64,000 nucleotides of DNA from a candidate division Hyd24-12 bacterium UBA5074 (GTDB taxonomy: Bacteria; Fermentibacterota; Fermentibacteria; Fermentibacterales; Fermentibacteraceae), in the NCBI GenBank assembly GCA_002414865.1, contig DIAQ01000098.1:1039-65038 (forward strand), written 5' to 3'. Each line of letters begins with the position of its first letter. Position 1 is the first letter of the stretch. Of the stretch, positions 3,666 through 57,593 are shown in pieces. Both the position numbers and the translations under genes were made by a program. Under the pieces are notes generated by a model. It did no database searches. It saw only the letters and a program-made list of their open reading frames with translations, and was not told the DNA's origin.

Positions 3666-6079
3666 GGGGAGCCCGCCCCTCCAGGGCCCGCCCTCGATGC
3701 GAGGAGCCCCTCGAGCACTCTGGCCGCGGCCACGGCGTCCTTCCCGTACAGCGCGCCGATCTCAGCCGCGAACTCCTCCGTGATCACGGCGCCTCCCACT
3801 ATCACGGCAGGCCCGCCACCCCCGGATGCGGACCTGAGGAGGGCGACCGTGGAGCGCAGGACCGGAAGGCTCGGAGTGAGCAGCGCGCTGAGCCCAACCA
3901 CGTCGGGCTTCTCCCTCGAAACGGCCGAGACGATCGCCTCGGCGGGCACGTCGCGGCCGAGGTCGACCACTTCCCATCCGTGGCCCTCGAGGACCGATGC
4001 CACGATGTTCTTGCCAATGTCGTGGACGTCACCCCGGACTGTTGCAAGCACGATCCTGCCGACCGCTCCCTCCCCGCCGGAGCGCCCGATGGAGGCGAAC
4101 GCCATCCTGACGGTTTCGGCGCCGGCGATGAGGGTCGGGAGGAAGAGACTCCCCGCCTCGTACCTCCTGCCCAGCTCCCTGGAGGCCTCGAGGAGGCTCC
4201 GCGCCGCCGACGCCCTGCCTCCCGGCCCTTCCGCCTCCGACGCCGCGAGTCTGGCCGCCGCCTCGGGATCTCCGGCCAGCACGGCATCCAGCAGGGTCTG
4301 CTCCCTGCCGGACCCGGGGGGCGCGGTGTCCTCCTGCCGCCCTCCTCCGCGGGAGCTCGAGACGAAGCGGGAAAGGGCCTCCGCATCCCCCGTCAGGGCT
4401 CCCGACGCGACGGACAGAGACATCAGACCGGGGTCGAGCGGATCCAGGATGGCGGCCGACAGCCCGGACTGGATCGCCCCTGCCAGGAACGCCCTGTTCA
4501 GGAGCCTCCTCCCGGGAAGGCCGAACGAGCAGTTGCTCAGACCGATGATCGTCGGCAGCCTGTACATGTCGCGGATCTCCCTGATGACCTCGTTCGTGAT
4601 CCGGGCCGACCCCGGCGAAGAGGCCTCCGCCATCACGACCGGGTCGATCAGGATGTCGGACGAGCCGAGTCCATTCCGATGCGCCGTCTCGAGCATGCCG
4701 TCGAGCAGCCTGAGCCTGCCGGTGGCGCTGCCAGGCACGCCTTCCGGACCGATCAGGAGGAGGATGGCGGCCGCCCCGTGCCTGGCCGCGAGCTCCAGTT
4801 CCCGCTCCAGCCTGTCCGGGATTCCCGGGATGGAGTTCACGACCGGCCTGCCCGCGTACTCGGCCATCCCTGCGTCGAGGACGCCCTCGTCCGAGGAGTC
4901 GAAGAGGAGAGGGGCCTGGGTGATGTTCTCCAGCGCCCTGGTCGCGAGGGGCACGAATTCCCTCTCCCTTGCCGGATCGCCCGTGCCGATGTTGAAGTCG
5001 AGCATCTCGGCGCCGGCGGAGGTCTGCTCGGCTGCGATCGCCTTCAGCACCGGGAGGGCTCCCCTGGCCACGGAGTCGGCGAGCTTCCTCCGGCCGGTGG
5101 GATTGATCCTCTCCCCGACGGGCCGGAAGGGATGGCCGGGACCCACGGGGAGGAAGACGAACCTGGAGGACGCCACGAAGCCGGCCGCCGGGGAGCGCTT
5201 CCTCACAGGCCTTCCCCTCACCGCAGCTGCGATCGCCGCCGTGCATTCCGGAGTCGAGCCGCAGCAGCTGCCGATCACCGAGGCGCCGATCTCCATCGCC
5301 TTCTCGGCGTAGGCGGCCATCCCGGCGGGGCCGGCCGGCCAGGAGAGGCAGTCCCCTCCCTGGACGGGAAGCCCTGCGTTGGACTGGACGGCCACGGGCA
5401 GGGGTGAAGTGCGCACAAGCTCCCGCAGGGCCTCCAGATTGCTCTCGATCGAGTCCCCGCAGTTGAGCCCCGCTGCTCCCGGACCCCACGCGGCCGCGAC
5501 CGACGAGAGAACTCCGGCCGGGGTGCCCGTCACAGTCCGGGCCGATCCCGAGAAGCTCATCTGCATGAGGATCGGGATGCTCCTGTCGAGCTCCCTGACC
5601 GCCATCACCGCGAGCCTCAGCTCCCTGATGTCCGTCATCGTCTCTATGGAGATCAGATCGACTCCCGCGCAGACCAGCAGCCTCGCGATTCCCCGGAAGC
5701 AGTCGAGGGCTTCGGAGGTGGCGAGGGGGCCGAACGGGAGCAGGAAGTCCCCCAGCGGGCCGATGGAGCCTGCAACGGCTGTCCTGGAGCCGCGGCAGCC
5801 ATCCCTTGCCGCCCTGACGGCCCTGTCCACTATCTCGGCCTGCCGCCCCTCGAGGCCGTGGCGCGCCAGCTGGATCCTGCCCGAGCAGAAGGTGTCCGTG
5901 GTGACGATGTCCGCACCTGCCTCGGCGTAGGCCTTGTGCAGCCTCGTCACCGCTCCGGGATCGCTCAGGAGCAGCTCGTCGGGCAGGCTCCCGCGGGGCA
6001 GCAGCGGCGACAGCATCGTCCCGACGGCTCCATCGGAGACGAGTATCTCCCTGCCAAGGCGCCCTAGAGCTTCCGCCAC
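3662..6079 (-). CDS. metH: Cobalamin-dependent methionine synthase core (Hcy-binding, pterin-binding and B12-binding domains; no C-terminal activation domain)
   Basis: 805 aa. Hcy S-methyltransferase domain (GAVGTML, CCGSTPE), pterin-binding barrel, and a B12-binding domain with D-x-H-x-x-G (GDVHDIGKNIV). Ends right after the B12 domain. Confidence 0.9.
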   Translation of the reverse strand: MAEALGRLGREILVSDGAVGTMLSPLLPRGSLPDELLLSDPGAVTRLHKAYAEAGADIVTTDTFCSGRIQLARHGLEGRQAEIVDRAVRAARDGCRGSRTAVAGSIGPLGDFLLPFGPLATSEALDCFRGIARLLVCAGVDLISIETMTDIRELRLAVMAVRELDRSIPILMQMSFSGSARTVTGTPAGVLSSVAAAWGPGAAGLNCGDSIESNLEALRELVRTSPLPVAVQSNAGLPVQGGDCLSWPAGPAGMAAYAEKAMEIGASVIGSCCGSTPECTAAIAAAVRGRPVRKRSPAAGFVASSRFVFLPVGPGHPFRPVGERINPTGRRKLADSVARGALPVLKAIAAEQTSAGAEMLDFNIGTGDPAREREFVPLATRALENITQAPLLFDSSDEGVLDAGMAEYAGRPVVNSIPGIPDRLERELELAARHGAAAILLLIGPEGVPGSATGRLRLLDGMLETAHRNGLGSSDILIDPVVMAEASSPGSARITNEVIREIRDMYRLPTIIGLSNCSFGLPGRRLLNRAFLAGAIQSGLSAAILDPLDPGLMSLSVASGALTGDAEALSRFVSSSRGGGRQEDTAPPGSGREQTLLDAVLAGDPEAAARLAASEAEGPGGRASAARSLLEASRELGRRYEAGSLFLPTLIAGAETVRMAFASIGRSGGEGAVGRIVLATVRGDVHDIGKNIVASVLEGHGWEVVDLGRDVPAEAIVSAVSREKPDVVGLSALLTPSLPVLRSTVALLRSASGGGGPAVIVGGAVITEEFAAEIGALYGKDAVAAARVLEGLLASRAGPGGAGSP

Positions 6080-6666
6080 CCCACCACCCCCGTCACCGTC
6101 TTGAGAGGGACGAGCATGAACCCCTCCCCGACCGTCACTCCCAGCCCGGGAAAGAGCTGCGTGAAATAGGCCTGGTTCTCCAGGCCGAGGTCCCCGAAGC
6201 CGGGGCTGAATCTGGCGGTCGCCCTCGAGCCCGTGGCCTCGGCTGCTTTCTTCTCATTGCGCTGGAACCATCTGGCGCATTCCTCCACGGTCTCGGACGC
6301 CGCCGCATCGAGGATCAGATGCCTGAGCGCATCGCCGCGCGCCGCGGATACGAGGGAATCGATGTCCGGGCCCAGCGTGGTCATGAAGAGGGTGGCGGAG
6401 GAGCACCCTTCCAGCCTCTTCGAGAGATCCGCGCTGTCGAAGACATGACGGGGGAGCTCGACGAGCCCCGGCCTCACCGACACCACCGCCTGCCTGCAGA
6501 ACGCCAGCCTGGCGTGCGATGCGGCCGCGACGTCGAGGAGCGCCTCCCGGAACCCCCGCGGGACATCCCCGGGACCGGCCTTCCTGCCCCTGCGCAGACG
6601 TGAGAGCACCCTGCCCGCGTCAGCCCTGCAGAGCATCTCCTCAACGCAGGAGATCGTCGAGCACAT
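6064..6666 (-). CDS. Standalone methionine synthase activation (AdoMet-binding) domain protein
   Basis: 200 aa. C-terminal region RFSPGFGDLGLENQ...LGVTVGEGFMLVPLKTVTGVVG matches the MetH reactivation-domain signature RxSPGYGDW...GV.LTES..M.P.KSVSG. Overlaps the metH start by 16 nt. Its own start could be the internal Met at ~6636. Confidence 0.7.
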   Translation of the reverse strand: MCSTISCVEEMLCRADAGRVLSRLRRGRKAGPGDVPRGFREALLDVAAASHARLAFCRQAVVSVRPGLVELPRHVFDSADLSKRLEGCSSATLFMTTLGPDIDSLVSAARGDALRHLILDAAASETVEECARWFQRNEKKAAEATGSRATARFSPGFGDLGLENQAYFTQLFPGLGVTVGEGFMLVPLKTVTGVVGWRKL

Positions 6667-13391: not shown

Positions 13392-14864
13392 TCAGAGGTA
13401 CAGGTCGCGCTCACCTGCGCGGATCCTGGCCAGATAGTCCTCCACGATCCTCCTCGTGGATTCGTCTCCCAGGCTTCCGATCTCCCTCTCGACGAGCTTC
13501 CAGCCCTCCTCGCGGACGCCCGGCGAGGCGAAATCCTCCAGGTACTCGGCAAACGTGAGGATCGCGTTCGGCATGCAGAAATTCTGGATCTTCCCGTCCT
13601 TGGACAGGCTCATGAAGCAGCCGCCGGTACGGCCGCACCGGTAGTCCGCGGTGCAGAAGCTGGTGATCATGCCCATCTTCGAGAGCTCGCCGACTACTTC
13701 GTCGAGCGTCCTGTTGTCGGAGAGCATGAACTGCTGGCGATCTCCTATGACATGTCCGTCGGAGTAGCCCTTTATGCCGATGTTGGAGCCGGCGTCGATC
13801 TGGGTGATGCCCAGCGGGATGAGGTCACGCCTCACCGCCGCCGGCTCCCGGGCGGTGAGGATGAGGCCGGTATAGGGCACCGACAGCCTGATCACCGTCA
13901 CGATCTTCCTGAAGAGGTCGTCGGGCACGCTGAACTTCGGGTTGTCCAGGAAGGGCGTGTTCACCGCGGGCTCCAGGCGGGGGACGCTTATGGTGTGAGG
14001 ACCCACCCCCCCGAAGCACCTCTCCAGGTCCATCGTGTGCAGCAGCATGGCCATGACCTCGAACCGGCAGTCGAACAGGCCGAACAGGGTGCCCATGGCG
14101 ACGTCGTCGATGCCTGCCTCCTGGGCGCGGTGGAGGGCGTAGAGCCGCCACTGCATGTCGCCCTTGAGAGTGCCTGCGGGATGGGCGCGGGCATAGGTCT
14201 CGTGGTGGTAGGTCTCCTGGAAGACCTGGTAGGTGCCGATGCCCACCTCCTTGAGCTTCCGGTAGTCGCCCACGCAGAGTGGAGCAGCGTTCACGTTGGC
14301 GCGCCTGATCTCGCCGCCGGCGTCCTTGACGGTGTAGGCCAGCCGGATCGTATGGGCGATGAAATCGGCATCGGTCGAGGGGTGCTCGCCGTAGACCATG
14401 ACCAGACGCTTGTGGCCCAGCCTGATGAGCGCGAGTATCTCCTCCTTCAGATCGTCGTCGCTCAGGCATCCCCTGACGACGGACCTGTTCTCGCGCCGGA
14501 AGCCGCAGTACTGGCAGTTGTTGACGCAGTAGTTGGAGACATACAGGGGGGCGAAGAAGACGATGCGCCTGCCGTAGACCGACTGCTTCACCTTCAGCCC
14601 GGCCCCGTGCATCTCCTGCCAGAGATCCTCGTCCGTGCAGTTGAGGAGCGCCGCCGTCTCGGACGGTTCGAGCCTCTTAAGAGACAGGGATTTCGCAATG
14701 ATGTCCCGCACCCGTGCCGGATCCGGGTCCCGCTGCTTCTCCAGCTCGGTCCAGATCAGGCCCTCGTCGACGAAGTCGCGTCCGTCGACCATGTACCGCT
14801 CGTTTTCCTCGTGCCTTATCTGCCGGTCGATCCAGCTTTTCTCATTGACGCTCAGCTCGCTCAT
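13392..14864 (-). CDS. HydG-like radical SAM protein (ThiH/HydG tyrosine-lyase family)
   Basis: 490 aa. CxxxCxxC radical SAM motif (CVNNCQYCGF). HydG-length C-terminal extension carrying a second Cys cluster (SFCTADYRCGRTGGCF...NFCMPN). ThiH itself is about 370 aa. Confidence 0.8.
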   Translation of the reverse strand: MSELSVNEKSWIDRQIRHEENERYMVDGRDFVDEGLIWTELEKQRDPDPARVRDIIAKSLSLKRLEPSETAALLNCTDEDLWQEMHGAGLKVKQSVYGRRIVFFAPLYVSNYCVNNCQYCGFRRENRSVVRGCLSDDDLKEEILALIRLGHKRLVMVYGEHPSTDADFIAHTIRLAYTVKDAGGEIRRANVNAAPLCVGDYRKLKEVGIGTYQVFQETYHHETYARAHPAGTLKGDMQWRLYALHRAQEAGIDDVAMGTLFGLFDCRFEVMAMLLHTMDLERCFGGVGPHTISVPRLEPAVNTPFLDNPKFSVPDDLFRKIVTVIRLSVPYTGLILTAREPAAVRRDLIPLGITQIDAGSNIGIKGYSDGHVIGDRQQFMLSDNRTLDEVVGELSKMGMITSFCTADYRCGRTGGCFMSLSKDGKIQNFCMPNAILTFAEYLEDFASPGVREEGWKLVEREIGSLGDESTRRIVEDYLARIRAGERDLYL

Positions 14865-48120: not shown

Positions 48121-49806
48121 TCAGAAGTCCCTGGCGGCCATCGACCTGTACGCGCCGCGCATGGTGAATACGGTCAGCGCGGCGGTCACCGGGACCAGGA
48201 AGAGGGCGAGGAGGGACATGGGCTGAACCATGGCGCGCTCGCGGAAGCCTTCCGACAGGTAGGCCTTCGTGGCCATCGAGAGCGCGGATACGACCACCAG
48301 CACATAGCCCATCGAGGCGAAGGCGGCGATGATCCCCCCCTGCCCGCTGGCGATGCTCGCTGCGCTGTTGTCGTCGAACCTGGGGAAGATCGCCCCCAGG
48401 GAGATGTTTATGCTGACGAGGGCGAAGCAGAGGAGGAGTATCGATCCGAGGGCCTCGGCCATCAGGATCGCTCCGGCTCCCAGCTTCCAGGTCGAGTAGA
48501 AGCCCGTGAGCAGCATGACCGGCAGTATCCCCGTGAAGGACTGCAGCCACTTCGACCTCAGCATGAACCTCCTGGCTCCGGGGACCTGGAGGAGGAAGTT
48601 GAGCCCGGGTCCCTCGAGGCTTGTCGAAGGGAAGCAGAACCTCACCAGCAGGGTCGCTATCACGAAACCCGTGAACGAGATGTTCATGTATACCGCGACA
48701 CCCAGCCAGAGCCGGGAGGCGATGGCCAGGGGGAAGCGGCCCAGGCTCCCGGCGTAGAGCACGAACAGCCCGAGCAGGAGGCCCAGCTGACTGAGCTGGA
48801 CGGGGTCGCGCAGGAAGAGGATGGTGTCCTTCTCCATCATGGCCCTCACGGGTCCGCCGAGCCTGAACACGGGAAGGCTGCGCTCCGGTCTCCCGCTGTC
48901 CCCCGAGACCGCGGAATACATCCTGCGGAAGCCGGGGCAGACCAGGAGAGCTGCCGCGGTGCATACGACGAAGGCTTCGCCCCAGAGCATGAGGGACGCT
49001 CTGATGGCAGTCCCTGCGCCGTTCCCGGAGGCCGCCGAGGAGAGAACGGAGGCGAAAAGCGCCGAGGGCCATGGCGAGTGCCCCGCCTGCGGAAGGCCTG
49101 CCACGAATCTCTGGACGGCGTCCAGCGATGCGCTGGAGTCAGGGATGACGATGCCGGAAGGCTGCATGCCCTGGAAGAACACGGCCAGCCCGGCGGCGGA
49201 GAGGACCACCGCCCCGGCCGCCCCCCTCCTGAGCCCGGTCATGCCTCCCACCCTCGAGAGCAGCGACATCACGACCGTCCCGAGAGCCACGGATACCAGG
49301 ACGAGCGGGATCAGCATCAGGATCCCCGCCAGCGCGGCGGAGGCCGGGCGGCCCGTCTCGGACGCGAAGGCGGCGATGATGGGTATGCCGAGCAGGATCG
49401 TGGACCATCCCGCATAGAACCAGCTCTCGAACATCCTGAAGAGCGCCGCGTGCCCGGCCTGGAACGGCATACCCAGCAGGAATGCGGTCTCGCCGGACCT
49501 GAACAGTGTCGAAGTGCCGCTTATGAGGGACGACACCGCCAGGAAGACGGTGAACGCCATGAAGGCCGAGGAGAGGAGCCGCGCCGAGAGCGCCAGCCCG
49601 AAGTCGGGCGAGGGCAGGGCTACGAGCTGCGAGAAGAGGAACCTGAAGAGCAGGAACATGGCCGGTGCTATGATGGAGAGGGTCAGGGCTCCCGCGAGCA
49701 CCTTCAGACGGTTGCCTTCCCACATCGATGCCATGGCTCCCCGGAGGGAGCGGGCCTTCATGGACAGCAGGAGCGCCAGTACGCGAAGCACTCCATAACA
49801 TAGCAC
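48121..49806 (-). CDS. Polytopic membrane protein of unknown function (ABC-2/permease-like topology)
   Basis: 561 aa, about 12 predicted TM helices. No catalytic motif recognised. Confidence 0.5.
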   Translation of the reverse strand: MLCYGVLRVLALLLSMKARSLRGAMASMWEGNRLKVLAGALTLSIIAPAMFLLFRFLFSQLVALPSPDFGLALSARLLSSAFMAFTVFLAVSSLISGTSTLFRSGETAFLLGMPFQAGHAALFRMFESWFYAGWSTILLGIPIIAAFASETGRPASAALAGILMLIPLVLVSVALGTVVMSLLSRVGGMTGLRRGAAGAVVLSAAGLAVFFQGMQPSGIVIPDSSASLDAVQRFVAGLPQAGHSPWPSALFASVLSSAASGNGAGTAIRASLMLWGEAFVVCTAAALLVCPGFRRMYSAVSGDSGRPERSLPVFRLGGPVRAMMEKDTILFLRDPVQLSQLGLLLGLFVLYAGSLGRFPLAIASRLWLGVAVYMNISFTGFVIATLLVRFCFPSTSLEGPGLNFLLQVPGARRFMLRSKWLQSFTGILPVMLLTGFYSTWKLGAGAILMAEALGSILLLCFALVSINISLGAIFPRFDDNSAASIASGQGGIIAAFASMGYVLVVVSALSMATKAYLSEGFRERAMVQPMSLLALFLVPVTAALTVFTMRGAYRSMAARDF

Positions 49807-49846
49807 CGACGGCGGAGGCGCGCCTCTTCCCGGCGGCCCGGGCCGC

Positions 49847-50830
49847 CTATCTGACCACGACCACCGCCTGCGTGACCGGGACCTCTCCGGGAGCCTCGAG
49901 CCTGACGAAGTAGACGCCCGGCTCCGCGATCGAGAAGGAGCCGTCGCCTGCGGAGACGGAGCCGCAGGACCTTCCGTCGATGGAGTAGAGAGTCACGACG
50001 CCGCCGCTGCCGGGAGCTTCGGAATGCACGGTGACAAGGCCGCTCGAGGGCGACGGGTGCGCCTCGAGCACCATCCCGCCGGCTGCGGGGTCTTCACCGA
50101 TCCCGGTCTCGAGGAGTTCGCTCATCCTGACCATGTGCGAATTCAGGATCTCGGCGGTCGCAATGGACTGGACGAACGTCGTCAGGTAGAGCTGGTCCCA
50201 TTCCCATGACGGGTCCACCAGGTAGTCGACGTCGAGGAGGATCGTCTCGGGTGACGAGGAGAACGACACCGTCGTCCCATCGGATCCGAATAGATTGTCC
50301 CGCAACGCATAGTTGAAATCGACCCCCTGCGTCGCGAAGGTGCCCGTGCCGGGGATCCCCGATTCGCTGACCATCGCGTGGACGGTGGCCTCGGTATCCA
50401 TGCCCATGTCGGTCGACAGGCTGATGGTCAGCGTTCCGGACGAGGGCGACGACGCCTCCGAGGCCTCGACGCCGATCCCCACGTGGCAGGGCACAGCCAT
50501 CCTGGTGCTGAAGTAGTCAGGGATCGTCTCGAGAGGCCAGGCATCGTAGAGGCCGTCGATCATGATCGTCGGGAACGCCGAGATGCCGTAGAAGTCCAGC
50601 CTGGCCTGATGGTCGGCGGGATCCGCGGCATAGACAGGGTCGCTCGAGCTCCCGTAGTGGATCGCCACGAGAGCGGCCTGGCCGGGATGGTCATCCAGGA
50701 ACTGCTCGACAGTGACCGCACTGCCAGGGCAGGAGCCTCAACCGTCCCAGGTGAATTCCTCGAACATGACGCATCTGTCCGCCGCCGAGGCCAGCGCGGA
50801 CAGGATCAGGAACGCAGGCAGGAAACGCAT
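49847..50830 (-). CDS. Secreted thioredoxin-fold protein with T9SS C-terminal sorting domain; in-frame TGA (50738..50740) at a U-x-x-C redox motif (candidate selenoprotein, alternatively a disrupted gene)
   Basis: ATG at 50828-50830 gives signal peptide MRFLPAFLILSALASAADR, then VMFEEFTWDG-TGA-GSCPGS in the same frame as track ORF 49847..50668. That sequence parallels thioredoxin FWAxWCGPC. Downstream YGISAFPTIMIDG parallels the Trx cis-Pro strand. The C-terminus has a T9SS-like CTD (GVYFVRLEA...VVVVR). Confidence 0.45.
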
Positions 50831-50902
50831 CCAGGACCTCCTTGAACCAGCATCCGTGCTGGAGGATGGGCGCAACCCCGTCCGGACCGGGGATGCGTCC
50901 GG

Positions 50903-51247
50903 TCAGCGCTGCCGAGCCATCCCGTCGAGCTCCTCCCGGGCCTGCGGTACCATCGCGAGGAACTCCCCGATGGTCGGGCAGGCCTGGTAGTCCTCGCAGG
51001 CGCCGCAGCCCGCAACGCCCCTCGCCATGCCGCACATCCGGATGCCGCACTCTCCGCAATGCCCGATGTGCCTGCCCTCGACGACTGTGCAGCCCACGCA
51101 GTCGATCTCCGAAGGCGGGATGTCGGAGGAGTACATCTTCGACCACTCCTCAGCGGTCCTGGCCCTCAGCTCGTCATCACCTGTCAGCCTCGCCACGTAT
51201 GCGGGACACTCCGAGCAGACCAGACCGCAGTACGAAACCAGCTTCAT
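50903..51247 (-). CDS. DUF3795-like cysteine-rich small protein
   Basis: 114 aa from MKLVSYCGLVCSECPAY with several CxxC pairs. ATG overlaps the MATE stop (ATGA). The upstream part of the track ORF is Arg/Gly junk. Confidence 0.6.
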   Translation of the reverse strand: MKLVSYCGLVCSECPAYVARLTGDDELRARTAEEWSKMYSSDIPPSEIDCVGCTVVEGRHIGHCGECGIRMCGMARGVAGCGACEDYQACPTIGEFLAMVPQAREELDGMARQR

Positions 51248-55871: not shown

Positions 55872-57593
55872 CTAGATGACCACCAGCCTCGCCGAGAACA
55901 TGCCCGCGGCCGTGTTCAGCCTCACCAGATAGACTCCCGCGGCCGGTCTTCCCCGGCCGTCCCCCGCCCAGCCGAAGGAGTGCGGCCCGGGCTCCAGCGT
56001 GCCCGAGAAGACGATATCCACAAGCCTCCCGGAGAGGTCGTAGATCTCCAGGGTGGCCCGCCCCGCGGAATCCGTCGCGAAGTCGAGCGAGACGCTCCCT
56101 GCGGAAGGGTTGGGGCACACCGAGAGCCGGCAGGCCGCCTCTCCTTCAGCGCCCGTCCCGGTGGTCGGACCCAGCCAGCCGTTGAGGCTGACCCCCTGCG
56201 CATAGATCCCGTAGTCGTTCCTGTAGTCGCACCAGGCATAGAGAGCGCTCTGACCCGTGCCCTCGCACAGGACGAGATCGTCCTTGCCCCCGAGGCTCGC
56301 AGCCGAGAGCGTGACCGGACCCCAGTCGAGCACTCCGTCGCTGCCGAGCCTCATGGAGCGGACCGAGGTCCCTGAAGCCCCGCGGAAGAATCCGACATAG
56401 ACTCCTTCGGCATCCGCGAGCGCCCTGACGAAGGATATCTGCTGAGACCCCAGAGGCACGAGCTGGAGGCCGGCATCGGTCCACTGCCTCGCGCCGGATG
56501 CAGAGAAACTCTGGCCGTAGACGCCGTACTGATCCTGGTTGTCGTTCTCCTCGACCCAGAAGACCACCGTCTGGTCCTGATCCGGGAAGTACGCGGCGGA
56601 GGGGTACATGTGCAGCCGGTTGCTCGTGTTGGTCGATGCCTGCGCCCCGTTCATGGGGAACAGCATGTCCCCGGACGCGTCCATGTGCTGCACCCAGACC
56701 TCGAAGGTCGAGAGGTCGACCGCGTCGTACCAGCTGCAGACCGCTCCGCCCTCGCCGTCGGACAGCACCTCCGGGTTGGTCCATGCCGAGATGTGGCCCG
56801 AATCGTAGATGAGCACGGGCGATCCTCCCCATGCCCAGCTCCCGGACGGATCCAGCATGCCTGTGTACAGGTGGGTGACCGGATACGGGAAGTTCCCGGT
56901 CGAGCTCTTCCAGAGCAGGATGGCATTGTCCCCCGAGGCGGGCGCAAGGCGCGGGAGTGTGAGGTTGCGGACCGGGTCGTCGAGGATGATGCCGTCCTCC
57001 CCCCACAGCTTGTCGCCGTCCGGCGACAGCTTCTGGAGGACGATCGTGTAGTCGGTGCCGGACTTCCCCCAGGCGATCACGGCGTTGCCGCTCTCTGTCA
57101 CGGCGACGGACGGGGCTGCCTCGAGGCTCGGCTCCGAGGTGTCGGAGAGGCTTACGCCGTCCGGGCCCCACAGGAACGTGCCGTCGCTACCGATCTTGTA
57201 CGCGGAGATGTCGAACTCACCCGCGGTGTGGCGCGAGTCCGCGAACGCTATCACCGCGTTGTCCGAGGCGTCCACCGCCATGTCGTAGTCGACGAGCCAG
57301 GACTCCTGCGGGTGGCTGCTGACCAGCAGCCCGTCGACAGCGAACATCTTGTTCCCCTGGGCATCCAGGCGCTGCAGATACAGACAGTAGCTTCCGCTGC
57401 GCGAATCGAACCACGAGATGAAGCAGCCGCCGTCCGAGGTGGCCGCCATCTTGGGCGTGCATTGCTCGCCTGTGAGATCACAGATCTGGAGATTCTGAAG
57501 GGAGTCGGCGCCCCATTGCGCCGATACGGCAGACGGCAGGAGCAGAAGGAGGACACCGATAGCTATGGGCACCATCCTTTTGGACATACTCAC
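55872..57593 (-). CDS. Secreted repeat/beta-propeller-like protein with T9SS C-terminal sorting domain
   Basis: Signal peptide. C-terminal about 80 aa matches the Por/T9SS CTD pattern (CPNPSAGSVSLDF...LEIYDLSGRLV...AGVYLVRL...ARLVVI). Confidence 0.8.
   Translation of the reverse strand: MSMSKRMVPIAIGVLLLLLPSAVSAQWGADSLQNLQICDLTGEQCTPKMAATSDGGCFISWFDSRSGSYCLYLQRLDAQGNKMFAVDGLLVSSHPQESWLVDYDMAVDASDNAVIAFADSRHTAGEFDISAYKIGSDGTFLWGPDGVSLSDTSEPSLEAAPSVAVTESGNAVIAWGKSGTDYTIVLQKLSPDGDKLWGEDGIILDDPVRNLTLPRLAPASGDNAILLWKSSTGNFPYPVTHLYTGMLDPSGSWAWGGSPVLIYDSGHISAWTNPEVLSDGEGGAVCSWYDAVDLSTFEVWVQHMDASGDMLFPMNGAQASTNTSNRLHMYPSAAYFPDQDQTVVFWVEENDNQDQYGVYGQSFSASGARQWTDAGLQLVPLGSQQISFVRALADAEGVYVGFFRGASGTSVRSMRLGSDGVLDWGPVTLSAASLGGKDDLVLCEGTGQSALYAWCDYRNDYGIYAQGVSLNGWLGPTTGTGAEGEAACRLSVCPNPSAGSVSLDFATDSAGRATLEIYDLSGRLVDIVFSGTLEPGPHSFGWAGDGRGRPAAGVYLVRLNTAAGMFSARLVVI

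What the first reader, a model, noticed from the sequence alone, without database searches (positions are those of the whole stretch)
49847..50830. In-frame UGA at the redox-motif position of a secreted thioredoxin-fold protein: candidate selenocysteine (U-G-S-C) protein with a T9SS sorting domain
Seen in sequence: an ATG at 50828-50830 opens a classic signal peptide (MRFLPAFLILSALASAADR). The frame continues VMFEEFTWDG, then TGA (50738-50740), then GSCPGS... in the very frame the ORF track resumes (49847..50668) at a GTG 24 codons later. Strand + W/C-G-P-C is the thioredoxin active-site layout, and the stop falls exactly on the first Cys (FTWDG-U-GSC versus FWAEW-C-GPC). The downstream YGISAFPTIMIDG matches the Trx cis-Pro strand. 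U-x-x-C is the standard selenoprotein redox motif. The mRNA just 3' of the UGA can form GC-rich hairpins (CUGCCCUGGCAG; GGUCA...ACUGUCGAGCAGU...UGACC) at roughly +7 to +50, the zone where bacterial SECIS elements lie. The C-terminus looks like a T9SS CTD. A secreted, T9SS-sorted selenoprotein would be unusual.
Basis: partly seen in the sequence, partly recalled or inferred. Interest (0 to 1): 0.8.

Follow-up and report, generated by a model that had tools for sequence, protein, structure and literature searches.

The report
Unannotated selenocysteine thioredoxin-like surface protein
A gene that annotation pipelines cut short at an internal "stop" codon very probably encodes a secreted thioredoxin-like enzyme that uses selenocysteine as its catalytic residue; it is a divergent, differently sorted relative of a selenoprotein family already predicted from ocean metagenomes.

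The parts
49847..50830 (-). Full read-through coding sequence: 327 codons with Sec at codon 31, plus the TAG stop at 49847-49849
   Evidence: Identical in 6 assemblies. Orthologs of 325-330 aa have the same layout.
50837..50843 (-). Shine-Dalgarno sequence AAGGAGG, 6 nt upstream of the ATG
   Evidence: Sequence. SD-like sequences precede the upstream ATG in 10 of 13 Sec-form genes, and none precedes the annotated GTG at 50668.
50783..50830 (-). Predicted Sec-pathway signal peptide, residues 1-16 (MRFLPAFLILSALASA, A-S-A cleavage motif)
   Evidence: Read from the sequence; no predictor was run. The homolog model shows an N-terminal helix followed by a linker. All homologs have an equivalent hydrophobic leader.
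50738..50740 (-). In-frame UGA, the proposed selenocysteine codon (residue 31)
   Evidence: Conserved in 13 distinct Sec-form sequences. Cys occupies this column in about 100 homologs. It aligns with the U of GOS_C.
50729..50740 (-). Redox motif U-G-S-C (residues 31-34), at the start of helix alpha1 of the Trx fold
   Evidence: In the P0027 model the equivalent CxxC is at residues 34-37, between strand 24-30 and helix 35-49.
50702..50732 (-). SECIS-like element. Lower stem CUGC/GCAG (50732-50729 with 50705-50702). Conserved upper stem GGCAGUG/CACUGUC (50725-50719 with 50714-50708), plus U50726:G50707. Apical loop CGGU (50718-50715).
   Evidence: Core helix paired in 90 of 91 cells, with one G:C to A:U double change in L005 and L036. 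Synonymous codon identity 0.97, z=5.1, the gene maximum, against z=0.2 in Cys-forms. Free energy -8.9 kcal/mol for the core and -13.4 with the lower stem. 19 nt from UGA to loop.
50477..50773 (-). Thioredoxin-fold domain, about residues 20-118, including the cis-Pro motif YGISAFPT (P87, 50570-50572)
50117..50476 (-). Omp28-like beta-sandwich middle domain, about residues 119-238
   Evidence: Model strands 123-240. Foldseek hit to the Omp28 domain 2r2c, TM 0.61. Weak PF11551 hit.
49850..50056 (-). T9SS type A C-terminal sorting domain, about residues 259-327
   Evidence: TIGR04183 scores 18.8 bits for this protein, below the cutoff of 23. 29 of 30 family members hit it, best E 8e-12. Family profiles hit solved T9SS CTDs 8glk, 5ag8, 7pq4 and 5hfs at E 2e-6 to 1e-4.
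49847..50668 (-). The truncated ORF as called by gene finders (GTG start, 273 aa = P0001); an annotation artefact
   Evidence: Gene callers also emit a separate 30-aa ORF for the fragment upstream of the TGA.

Best explanation
The gene encodes a 327-residue selenoprotein of a Candidatus Fermentibacterota bacterium (GCA_002479745.1). Proposed mechanism:
1. Translation starts at ATG 50830, behind a strong Shine-Dalgarno sequence.
2. At UGA-31, SelB carrying Sec-tRNA(Sec) is recruited by the hairpin 14-34 nt downstream (apical loop CGGU). Selenocysteine is inserted instead of terminating.
3. The preprotein is exported by the Sec translocon through its N-terminal signal peptide.
4. It is then passed across the outer membrane by the type IX secretion system through its C-terminal sorting domain. 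It is either released or anchored on the cell surface.
5. Its thioredoxin-fold domain uses the U-G-S-C selenol/thiol pair as a thiol-disulfide oxidoreductase. This is by analogy with P. gingivalis HBP35, whose CxxC gives thioredoxin activity.

Shown here: the conserved UGA, the Cys/Sec correspondence, the RNA-level constraint on a hairpin that meets SECIS criteria, the Trx fold, the CTD, and the fact that UGA is otherwise a stop codon. Inferred: SelB dependence, actual Sec insertion, export route, surface location and redox activity.
For: UGA conservation:
- Same column in the window plus 12 other distinct sequences, forming a monophyletic clade.
- Identical in 6 independent assemblies.
- A second small Sec subclade (L059/L060) has UGA in the same column.

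Cys correspondence:
- The first Cys of a near-universal CxxC in about 100 homologs.
- U aligns with U of the catalogued selenoprotein GOS_C (hhalign 97%, E 1e-10).

The upstream fragment is coding:
- dN/dS 0.19 over the 13 codons before the UGA.
- An SD precedes the upstream ATG and none precedes the GTG.

SECIS:
- Meets all four published criteria (PMC13188914): 4-nt loop, 7-8 bp stem, G at loop position 2 followed by G, 19 nt spacing, -8.9 to -13.4 kcal/mol.
- Helix paired in 90 of 91 cells with one compensatory pair.
- Synonymous constraint z=5.1 in Sec-forms against z=0.2 in Cys-forms.
- Mean folding energy -11.1 against -5.7 kcal/mol.

No code change:
- TGA ends 31 of 48 predicted genes.
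- atpA and atpD on the same contig read through without TGA.

Fold and sorting. HBP35 biochemistry: PMC2907840.
Against: - No selA, selB, selD or tRNA-Sec in the window, in 17.5 kb of contig extension, or in about 440 kb of related loci. That is a small sample of a roughly 2.5-Mb genome, so the machinery is untested rather than absent.
- No Rfam hit.
- Covariation is thin: one compensatory pair, in two related sequences. Shuffle controls on the pair counts are not significant.
- A hairpin that passes the bSECIS criteria follows 8-11% of random TGAs here.
- The window protein's own T9SS-tail score is below the curated cutoff (18.8 against 23).
- The structure was modelled on a Cys homolog, not on the window protein itself.
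- One nested lineage (L007) has lost the whole redox motif, so the rest of the protein can function without it.
Confidence: 0.82

Rival explanations
1. UGA terminates translation. The locus produces a 30-residue leader peptide and, separately, a 273-residue protein that starts at GTG 50668, as annotated. The downstream product could be a cytoplasmic truncated form, as seen for HBP35.
For: This is how gene callers annotate it in every assembly. HBP35 of P. gingivalis does yield N-terminally truncated 27- and 29-kDa forms (PMC2907840). A nested lineage lacks the redox motif altogether, so the C-terminal domains have a function of their own.
Against: There is no SD before the GTG, while a strong SD precedes the upstream ATG. 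The truncated product would lack the signal peptide that a T9SS CTD protein needs, and would also lack strand beta1 and the active site of the Trx fold. The upstream fragment is under purifying selection in the same frame (dN/dS 0.19) and is homologous to the N-termini of full-length Cys-forms. Synonymous constraint on the hairpin just 3' of the UGA is specific to UGA-forms. The motif-less lineage L007 reads through in the same frame.
Confidence: 0.08
2. The UGA is read through without selenocysteine, either by near-cognate tRNA (Trp/Cys/Arg) or by a hairpin-stimulated read-through mechanism. The result is a full-length protein that is not a selenoprotein.
For: Sec machinery was not found in the sequence available. 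Downstream hairpins can stimulate read-through in general (own knowledge).
Against: The UGA sits exactly on the catalytic Cys of a CxxC, which is the classic Sec/Cys exchange position. It aligns with the U of a known selenoprotein family. The loop carries the GG/GU feature of SelB-binding SECIS elements at canonical spacing. Trp or Arg at the nucleophile position would kill the redox site, yet the resolving Cys and the CP(G) context stay conserved in all 13 UGA-forms.
Confidence: 0.07
3. Artefact or decay: a sequencing or assembly error, a recent pseudogene, or a genome-wide reassignment of UGA.
For: The source is a metagenome-assembled genome with scaffold gaps elsewhere on the contig.
Against: Six independent assemblies are identical. 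Twelve further diverged orthologs keep the UGA, with 51-59% protein identity in the tblastn matches. Purifying selection acts on both sides of the UGA. TGA is the commonest stop in the window. The interruptions in atpA and atpD are runs of N, not TGAs.
Confidence: 0.01

Closest known systems
Hypothetical protein GOS_C = NCBIfam NF045500 'Omp28-related selenoprotein' (Zhang & Gladyshev 2008, PMC2398784; Table 1 of PMC13188914)
   Same: Homologous Trx-like domain plus beta-sandwich (hhalign 97%, E 1e-10, 204 columns). UxxC follows the same VV(M/L)xE(D/E)FT strand and precedes a Pro, and U aligns with U. Both are only computationally predicted and of unknown function. Both are truncated by gene callers.
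   Different: About 26% identity over 86 residues. The window protein scores 39 bits on NF045500 against a cutoff of 200, while GOS_C relatives score 337-433. GOS_C proteins end in a thrombospondin-type-3/dockerin-like region with no T9SS tail, whereas this family ends in a T9SS type A CTD. GOS_C was found in the Global Ocean Sampling marine metagenome, whereas this family is so far seen only in Fermentibacterota MAGs.
HBP35 (hemin-binding protein 35) of Porphyromonas gingivalis, PDB 5y1a
   Different: HBP35 has Cys, not Sec. Sequence identity is about 14-15%. The sequence profile reaches it only through the CTD (E 0.003). Hemin binding is not predictable here. Different phylum (Bacteroidota).
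Omp28 outer-membrane lipoprotein family (Pfam PF11551; NCBIfam NF033782; PDB 2r2c)
   Same: The middle beta-sandwich matches the solved Omp28 domain (TM 0.61). Weak HMM hits. Several family members have precomputed PF11551 hits.
   Different: Scores are far below both cutoffs (15 against 34.9 bits; 31 against 150 bits). There is no lipobox: the signal peptide ends A-S-A|A-D-R, and the nearby Cys20 is not conserved.
Sec-containing thioredoxins, DsbA-like and thiol:disulfide interchange selenoproteins (UxxC class; Table 1 of PMC13188914)
   Same: Trx fold with Sec replacing the N-terminal nucleophilic Cys of CxxC. A bSECIS lies immediately downstream within the coding region.
   Different: Those are single-domain or periplasmic proteins. 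None is described with a T9SS sorting domain, and a literature search for selenoprotein plus T9SS found nothing relevant.
UGSC-containing protein (NCBIfam NF041046)
   Same: The same U-G-S-C tetrapeptide.
   Different: No HMM match at E<=1 in the NCBIfam scan. The shared tetrapeptide appears coincidental.

Membership tests
Bacterial selenoprotein gene (Sec-UGA plus bSECIS) | In-frame UGA conserved among orthologs, with coding sequence under selection on both sides | tested here: met
   13 distinct sequences plus 6 identical assemblies. Upstream dN/dS 0.19.
Bacterial selenoprotein gene (Sec-UGA plus bSECIS) | Homologs carry Cys at the aligned position | tested here: met
   About 100 Cys-forms, first Cys of CxxC.
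Bacterial selenoprotein gene (Sec-UGA plus bSECIS) | bSECIS consensus: loop 3-9 nt, stem 4-16 bp, G in the first two loop positions, 16-37 nt from UGA, MFE <= -7.5 kcal/mol (PMC13188914) | tested here: met
   Loop 4 nt (CGGU), stem 7-8 bp, spacing 19 nt, -8.3 to -13.4 kcal/mol. The criteria are unspecific here: 8-11% of all TGAs pass.
Bacterial selenoprotein gene (Sec-UGA plus bSECIS) | RNA-level conservation or covariation of the hairpin, specific to UGA-forms | tested here: met
   Synonymous identity 0.97 (z 5.1) against 0.45 (z 0.2) in Cys-forms. One compensatory pair; the shuffle test on pair counts is not significant.
Bacterial selenoprotein gene (Sec-UGA plus bSECIS) | selA, selB, selC (tRNA-Sec) and selD present in the same genome | not testable with these tools
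   None in the window, in 17.5 kb of flanks, or in about 440 kb of loci.
Bacterial selenoprotein gene (Sec-UGA plus bSECIS) | Selenium incorporation shown by 75Se labelling or mass spectrometry | not testable with these tools
   Requires experiment.
NCBIfam NF045500 Omp28-related selenoprotein (GOS_C) | HMM score at or above the curated cutoff (200 bits) | tested here: not met
   39 bits. Positive controls score 337-433 bits.
NCBIfam NF045500 Omp28-related selenoprotein (GOS_C) | UxxC at the homologous site of a Trx-like fold | tested here: met
   U aligned to U. hhalign 97%.
NCBIfam NF045500 Omp28-related selenoprotein (GOS_C) | C-terminal region of the model (positions about 280-377; TSP3/dockerin-like) | tested here: not met
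   The window protein's match ends at model position 271. GOS_C relatives have TSP_3 and no T9SS tail.
Thioredoxin fold | beta-alpha-beta-alpha-beta-beta-alpha topology, CxxC at the N-terminus of helix 1, cis-Pro before strand 3 | tested here: met
T9SS type A cargo (TIGR04183 / PF18962 CTD) | C-terminal sorting domain at or above the curated cutoff | tested here: inconclusive
   Window protein 18.8 bits against a cutoff of 23. 29 of 30 relatives hit it at E<=0.01, best E 8e-12. Profile hits to solved CTDs.
T9SS type A cargo (TIGR04183 / PF18962 CTD) | N-terminal Sec signal peptide | tested here: met
   Hydrophobic leader with A-S-A motif, judged from the sequence only. No predictor was available.
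T9SS type A cargo (TIGR04183 / PF18962 CTD) | T9SS machinery encoded in the genome | not tested
   Indirect only: another CTD protein in the window (55872-57593, 34 bits).
HBP35-like surface thioredoxin | Trx domain, beta-sandwich and CTD architecture | tested here: met
HBP35-like surface thioredoxin | Disulfide-reductase activity, hemin binding, surface anchoring | not testable with these tools
   Known only for HBP35 itself (PMC2907840).
Omp28 lipoprotein (PF11551 / NF033782) | HMM score at or above cutoff, and a lipobox | tested here: not met
   15.1 against 34.9 bits and 30.8 against 150 bits. No lipobox in the sequence.

The most novel reading that the evidence does not exclude
This would be the first recognised selenoprotein that is cargo of the type IX secretion system: a selenol-based oxidoreductase displayed on, or released from, the cell surface of an anaerobic fermenter. 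The family offers a natural series for asking what Sec buys an extracellular redox enzyme: a Sec clade, about 100 Cys-forms, a second independent Sec subclade that seems to use a different downstream RNA element, and a lineage that discarded the redox site.
Probability: 0.55. Interest if true: 0.6.

Novelty: new variant of a known kind. Interest (0 to 1): 0.45.

Why it matters
The practical point is annotation. In every public record examined, this gene is split into a 30-aa ORF and a truncated "T9SS type A sorting domain-containing protein", so its active site is missing. That holds for at least 13 distinct orthologous sequences, and for the catalogued GOS_C family in the protein database as well.

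The biological point is location. Known bacterial selenoproteins are overwhelmingly cytoplasmic or periplasmic. A Sec-containing thioredoxin-like protein routed through the T9SS to the cell surface would extend selenium-dependent redox chemistry to the outside of the cell. It would do so in a poorly studied candidate phylum that is common in anaerobic digesters.

The family also gives a compact comparative system for studying Cys/Sec exchange and SECIS evolution: two Sec origins, many Cys-forms and one loss.

It does not overturn anything. The protein class (Trx-fold UxxC, Omp28-related) and the recoding mechanism are both established.

Tried and rejected
- Rfam, at gathering thresholds on the whole window and permissively on 151 nt around the UGA, gave no SECIS family, only chance hits (mir-34, HTT-AS1).
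- tRNA-Sec: ARAGORN on the window and 40 loci found none.
- Sec machinery:
  - A motif scan for SelA, SelB and SelD hallmarks over 62 sequences (440 kb) found none.
  - Contig extensions at both window ends found none (RuvABC and pyrBI on one side, an ATP synthase operon on the other).
  - One edge-gene look-up failed because the start codon differed.
- Literature: searches for Omp28 + selenoprotein, Fermentibacter + selenocysteine, Hyd24-12 + seleno and selenoprotein + T9SS returned nothing relevant. No BSepDB supplements are held.
- Structure:
  - The window protein could not be submitted with U replaced by C or with '*'.
  - It was redone with 113 sequences.
- Gene context: tblastn of the window's neighbours against 18 ortholog loci gave no hits, while the positive control worked. 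There is no conserved operon.
- General UGA recoding was considered because atpA and atpD looked broken on the contig. It was rejected: the breaks are runs of N.
- The single-sequence fold z-score and the generic bSECIS criteria were rejected as evidence because they are at chance level here.
- Membership of the UGSC-containing protein family (NF041046) was rejected: no HMM hit.

Full report
**1. The observation**

On the minus strand an ATG at 50830 opens MRFLPAFLILSALASAADRCVMFEEFTWDG. A TGA follows at 50738-50740, and the same frame continues GSCPGSAVTVEQFL... to a TAG at 49847-49849. ORF callers restart at GTG 50668 and give a 273-aa product.

The window is part of contig DLOW01000076.1 of GCA_002479745.1, a Candidatus Fermentibacterota MAG. 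The whole 984-nt CDS, TGA included, is identical in six independent assemblies, so the TGA is not a sequencing error.

I scanned the window and a 10-kb contig extension for ORFs split by a single TGA with strong third-position GC signal on both sides. Only this gene came back.

**2. UGA is otherwise a stop codon here**

In a rough gene map of the window, TGA ends 31 of 48 genes. These include genes confirmed by family models: MATE, MltG, RluA, aldo-keto reductase and HydG.

The atpA and atpD genes further along the contig looked broken. The breaks are scaffold gaps (runs of N), and both genes otherwise read through without any TGA. Genome-wide reassignment of UGA is excluded.

**3. Comparative evidence for recoding**

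A protein-pattern scan, independent of the UGA region, fetched 30 loci from GTDB species representatives and 28 from metagenomes. All named sources are Fermentibacterota.

- Thirteen distinct sequences, the window included, carry TGA in the same column: FTW[DN][GA]-U-[GSP][ST]-C-P.
- They form one clade in an NJ tree.
- About 100 full-length homologs have Cys there, as the first Cys of a near-universal C-x-x-C.
- The 13 codons before the UGA have dN/dS of about 0.19 in that frame.
- A Shine-Dalgarno sequence precedes the upstream ATG (AAGGAGG at 50837-50843; 10 of 13 orthologs have one). None precedes the annotated GTG.

Two further variants are informative. L007/P0010/P0014 sits inside the Sec clade but has replaced the motif with S-P-Y-D, and it reads through in frame, so this is a secondary loss. 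L059/L060 sits deep in the Cys clade and has an independent TGA in the same column, U-S-G-C.

**4. The SECIS-like element**

The conserved structure is GGCAGUG-[C/A]GG[U/G]-CACUGUC (window 50725-50708). An extra U:G pair and a lower CUGC/GCAG stem are present in the window.

It meets each published bSECIS criterion (PMC13188914):
- loop of 4 nt;
- stem of 7-8 bp;
- G at loop position 2, followed by G;
- 19 nt between UGA and loop;
- free energy of -8.9 kcal/mol for the core and -13.4 with the lower stem.

Taken alone this is weak evidence. The 76-nt fold is no better than shuffles (z +0.32). In this 67% GC window, 8-11% of all TGA trinucleotides have a qualifying hairpin.

What carries weight is conservation:
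- The core helix is paired in 90 of 91 cells, with one G:C to A:U double change in L005 and L036. That change alters two amino acids in a coordinated way (S to N, T to I).
- Synonymous codon identity peaks on exactly these codons, at 0.97 against a gene mean of 0.43. That is z=5.1, the highest value in the gene.
- The same positions in 29 Cys-forms show no such constraint (0.45, z=0.2).
- Cys-forms fold more weakly there, at -5.7 against -11.1 kcal/mol.

Covariation itself is thin, and the shuffle controls on pair counts are not significant.

In the second Sec subclade, the 45 nt starting at the UGA are 93% identical between L059 and L060, against 68% overall. No clear hairpin emerges from only two sequences.

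**5. What the protein is**

The window protein could not be submitted for modelling because of the U residue. I modelled P0027, a 43%-identical full-length Cys-form, with a 113-sequence alignment (pLDDT 92.6). The model has these parts:
- a leader helix;
- a thioredoxin-topology domain, with the CxxC at the start of helix 1 and a Pro before strand 3, which matches the window's YGISAFPT;
- a beta-sandwich;
- a C-terminal beta-sandwich.

Structure searches:

| Match | Score |
|---|---|
| Omp28 domain (2r2c), middle domain only | Foldseek TM 0.61 |

At the sequence-profile level, the family reaches thioredoxin 6ali (E 1e-4) and solved T9SS C-terminal domains (E 2e-6 to 1e-4). Of 30 family members, 29 hit TIGR04183. 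The window protein itself scores 18.8 bits, just under the cutoff of 23. Another T9SS-tail protein lies 5 kb away in the window.

HBP35 is an experimentally studied T9SS cargo on the cell surface. Its thioredoxin activity requires both Cys of its C-x-Y-C-P-G motif (PMC2907840).

**6. Relation to known selenoproteins**

NCBIfam NF045500, "Omp28-related selenoprotein", is the GOS_C family predicted from ocean metagenomes in 2008: Trx-like fold, UxxC, 74 Sec sequences and 312 Cys homologs, function unknown (PMC2398784; Table 1 of PMC13188914).

A GOS_C representative from the deep-Sep supplement scores 337 bits on NF045500. The window protein scores 39 bits against a cutoff of 200.

The two are nevertheless homologous. 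hhalign gives 97% probability and E 1e-10 over 204 columns. In the BLASTP alignment U pairs with U: DRCVMFEEFTWDG-U-GSCP against SRVVMVEDFTGLN-U-PYCP.

GOS_C relatives end in a thrombospondin-type-3/dockerin-like region and have no T9SS tail, even at E<=0.1.

The window gene is therefore a divergent branch of a known selenoprotein superfamily, with Sec at the homologous site. It fails that family's curated membership test and differs in how it is sorted. No paper in the searchable library links selenoproteins with T9SS, or with Fermentibacterota.

**7. What could not be done**

The key refutation test is the presence of selA, selB, selC and selD in the genome, and it is out of reach here. Nothing was found in the window, in 17.5 kb of contig extension, or in about 440 kb of related loci. 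That samples only a few percent of one genome.

The gene has no conserved neighbours, so context gives no functional clue.

**8. Verdict**

The best explanation is SelB/SECIS-dependent insertion of selenocysteine at the nucleophilic position of a UxxC thioredoxin-like active site, in a protein that is exported by the Sec pathway and then sorted by the T9SS. Confidence is about 0.8. The remaining doubt is mostly the untested Sec machinery.

It is a new variant of a known kind and is unannotated in the public records examined. Interest is moderate.

Noticed in passing
L059:2423-2425 and L060:304-306 (loci fetched through P0131 and P0129): A second, independent Sec subclade sits inside the Cys clade: ...IERFTNSG-U-SGC-YSSEPT..., with TGA in the same column. 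The 45 nt starting at the UGA are 93% identical between the two loci, against 68% overall. No canonical hairpin is evident, so this may be a different SECIS type.
   Followed up: partly
L007:6001-6984 (also P0010, P0014): A lineage nested within the Sec clade has lost the redox motif: FTWNA-S-PY-D-PL, with AGT at the U column and GAC at the Cys column. It keeps the rest of the protein in frame. The beta-sandwich and CTD parts therefore have a function that does not depend on the UxxC site.
   Followed up: partly
window 50470-50487 (-), residues 110-115 (RMAVPC): A further Cys (C115, motif RMAVPC[HY]) is conserved in the Sec clade and in the nearest Cys-form branch of the tree (L008-L012, L014, L017, L029, L045, L048). 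It is replaced (R.AVPA) in most of the more distant Cys-forms. It could be a third redox-relevant residue.
   Followed up: no
window 55872-57593 (-): A second protein with a T9SS type A sorting domain (TIGR04183, 34 bits), 573 aa, otherwise without family hits. It shows that this genome encodes other T9SS-type cargo.
   Followed up: partly
window 50903-51247 (-), immediately upstream of the selenoprotein gene: A small Cys-rich DUF3795 ORF (...CEDYQACPTIGEF...) lies between the MATE transporter gene and the selenoprotein gene. The arrangement is not conserved next to orthologs in other genomes.
   Followed up: partly
window 49806-49847 (-), just after the TAG stop: A GC-rich stem-loop (GGCGGCCCGGGCCGCC... 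and an extended pairing, about -26 kcal/mol) follows the stop codon directly, with no T-run. It may be a terminator or an mRNA-stabilising hairpin.
   Followed up: no
L069:2150-3950 and 4700-6450 (contig DLOW01000076.1, outside the window): atpA and atpD of the F-type ATP synthase operon are each interrupted by a run of N (160 and 176) flanked by duplicated sequence. These are scaffolding gaps in the MAG, not biological interruptions.
   Followed up: yes
Stop codons of the 13 Sec-form genes (window 49847-49849 and orthologs): 12 of the 13 Sec-form genes end in TAG and only one in TGA, although TGA is the commonest stop in the window (31 of 48). This may reflect avoidance of a second UGA in a selenoprotein mRNA, or shared ancestry.
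   Followed up: no
window 13392-14864 (-): A clear [FeFe]-hydrogenase maturase HydG (470 bits), consistent with a fermentative, hydrogen-producing anaerobe.
   Followed up: no
P0132-P0147 (GOS_C / NF045500 relatives in the protein database): Every one of these is N-terminally truncated just after the Sec position (73-78% coverage). The catalogued selenoprotein family is therefore also systematically mis-called in metagenome gene predictions.
   Followed up: partly
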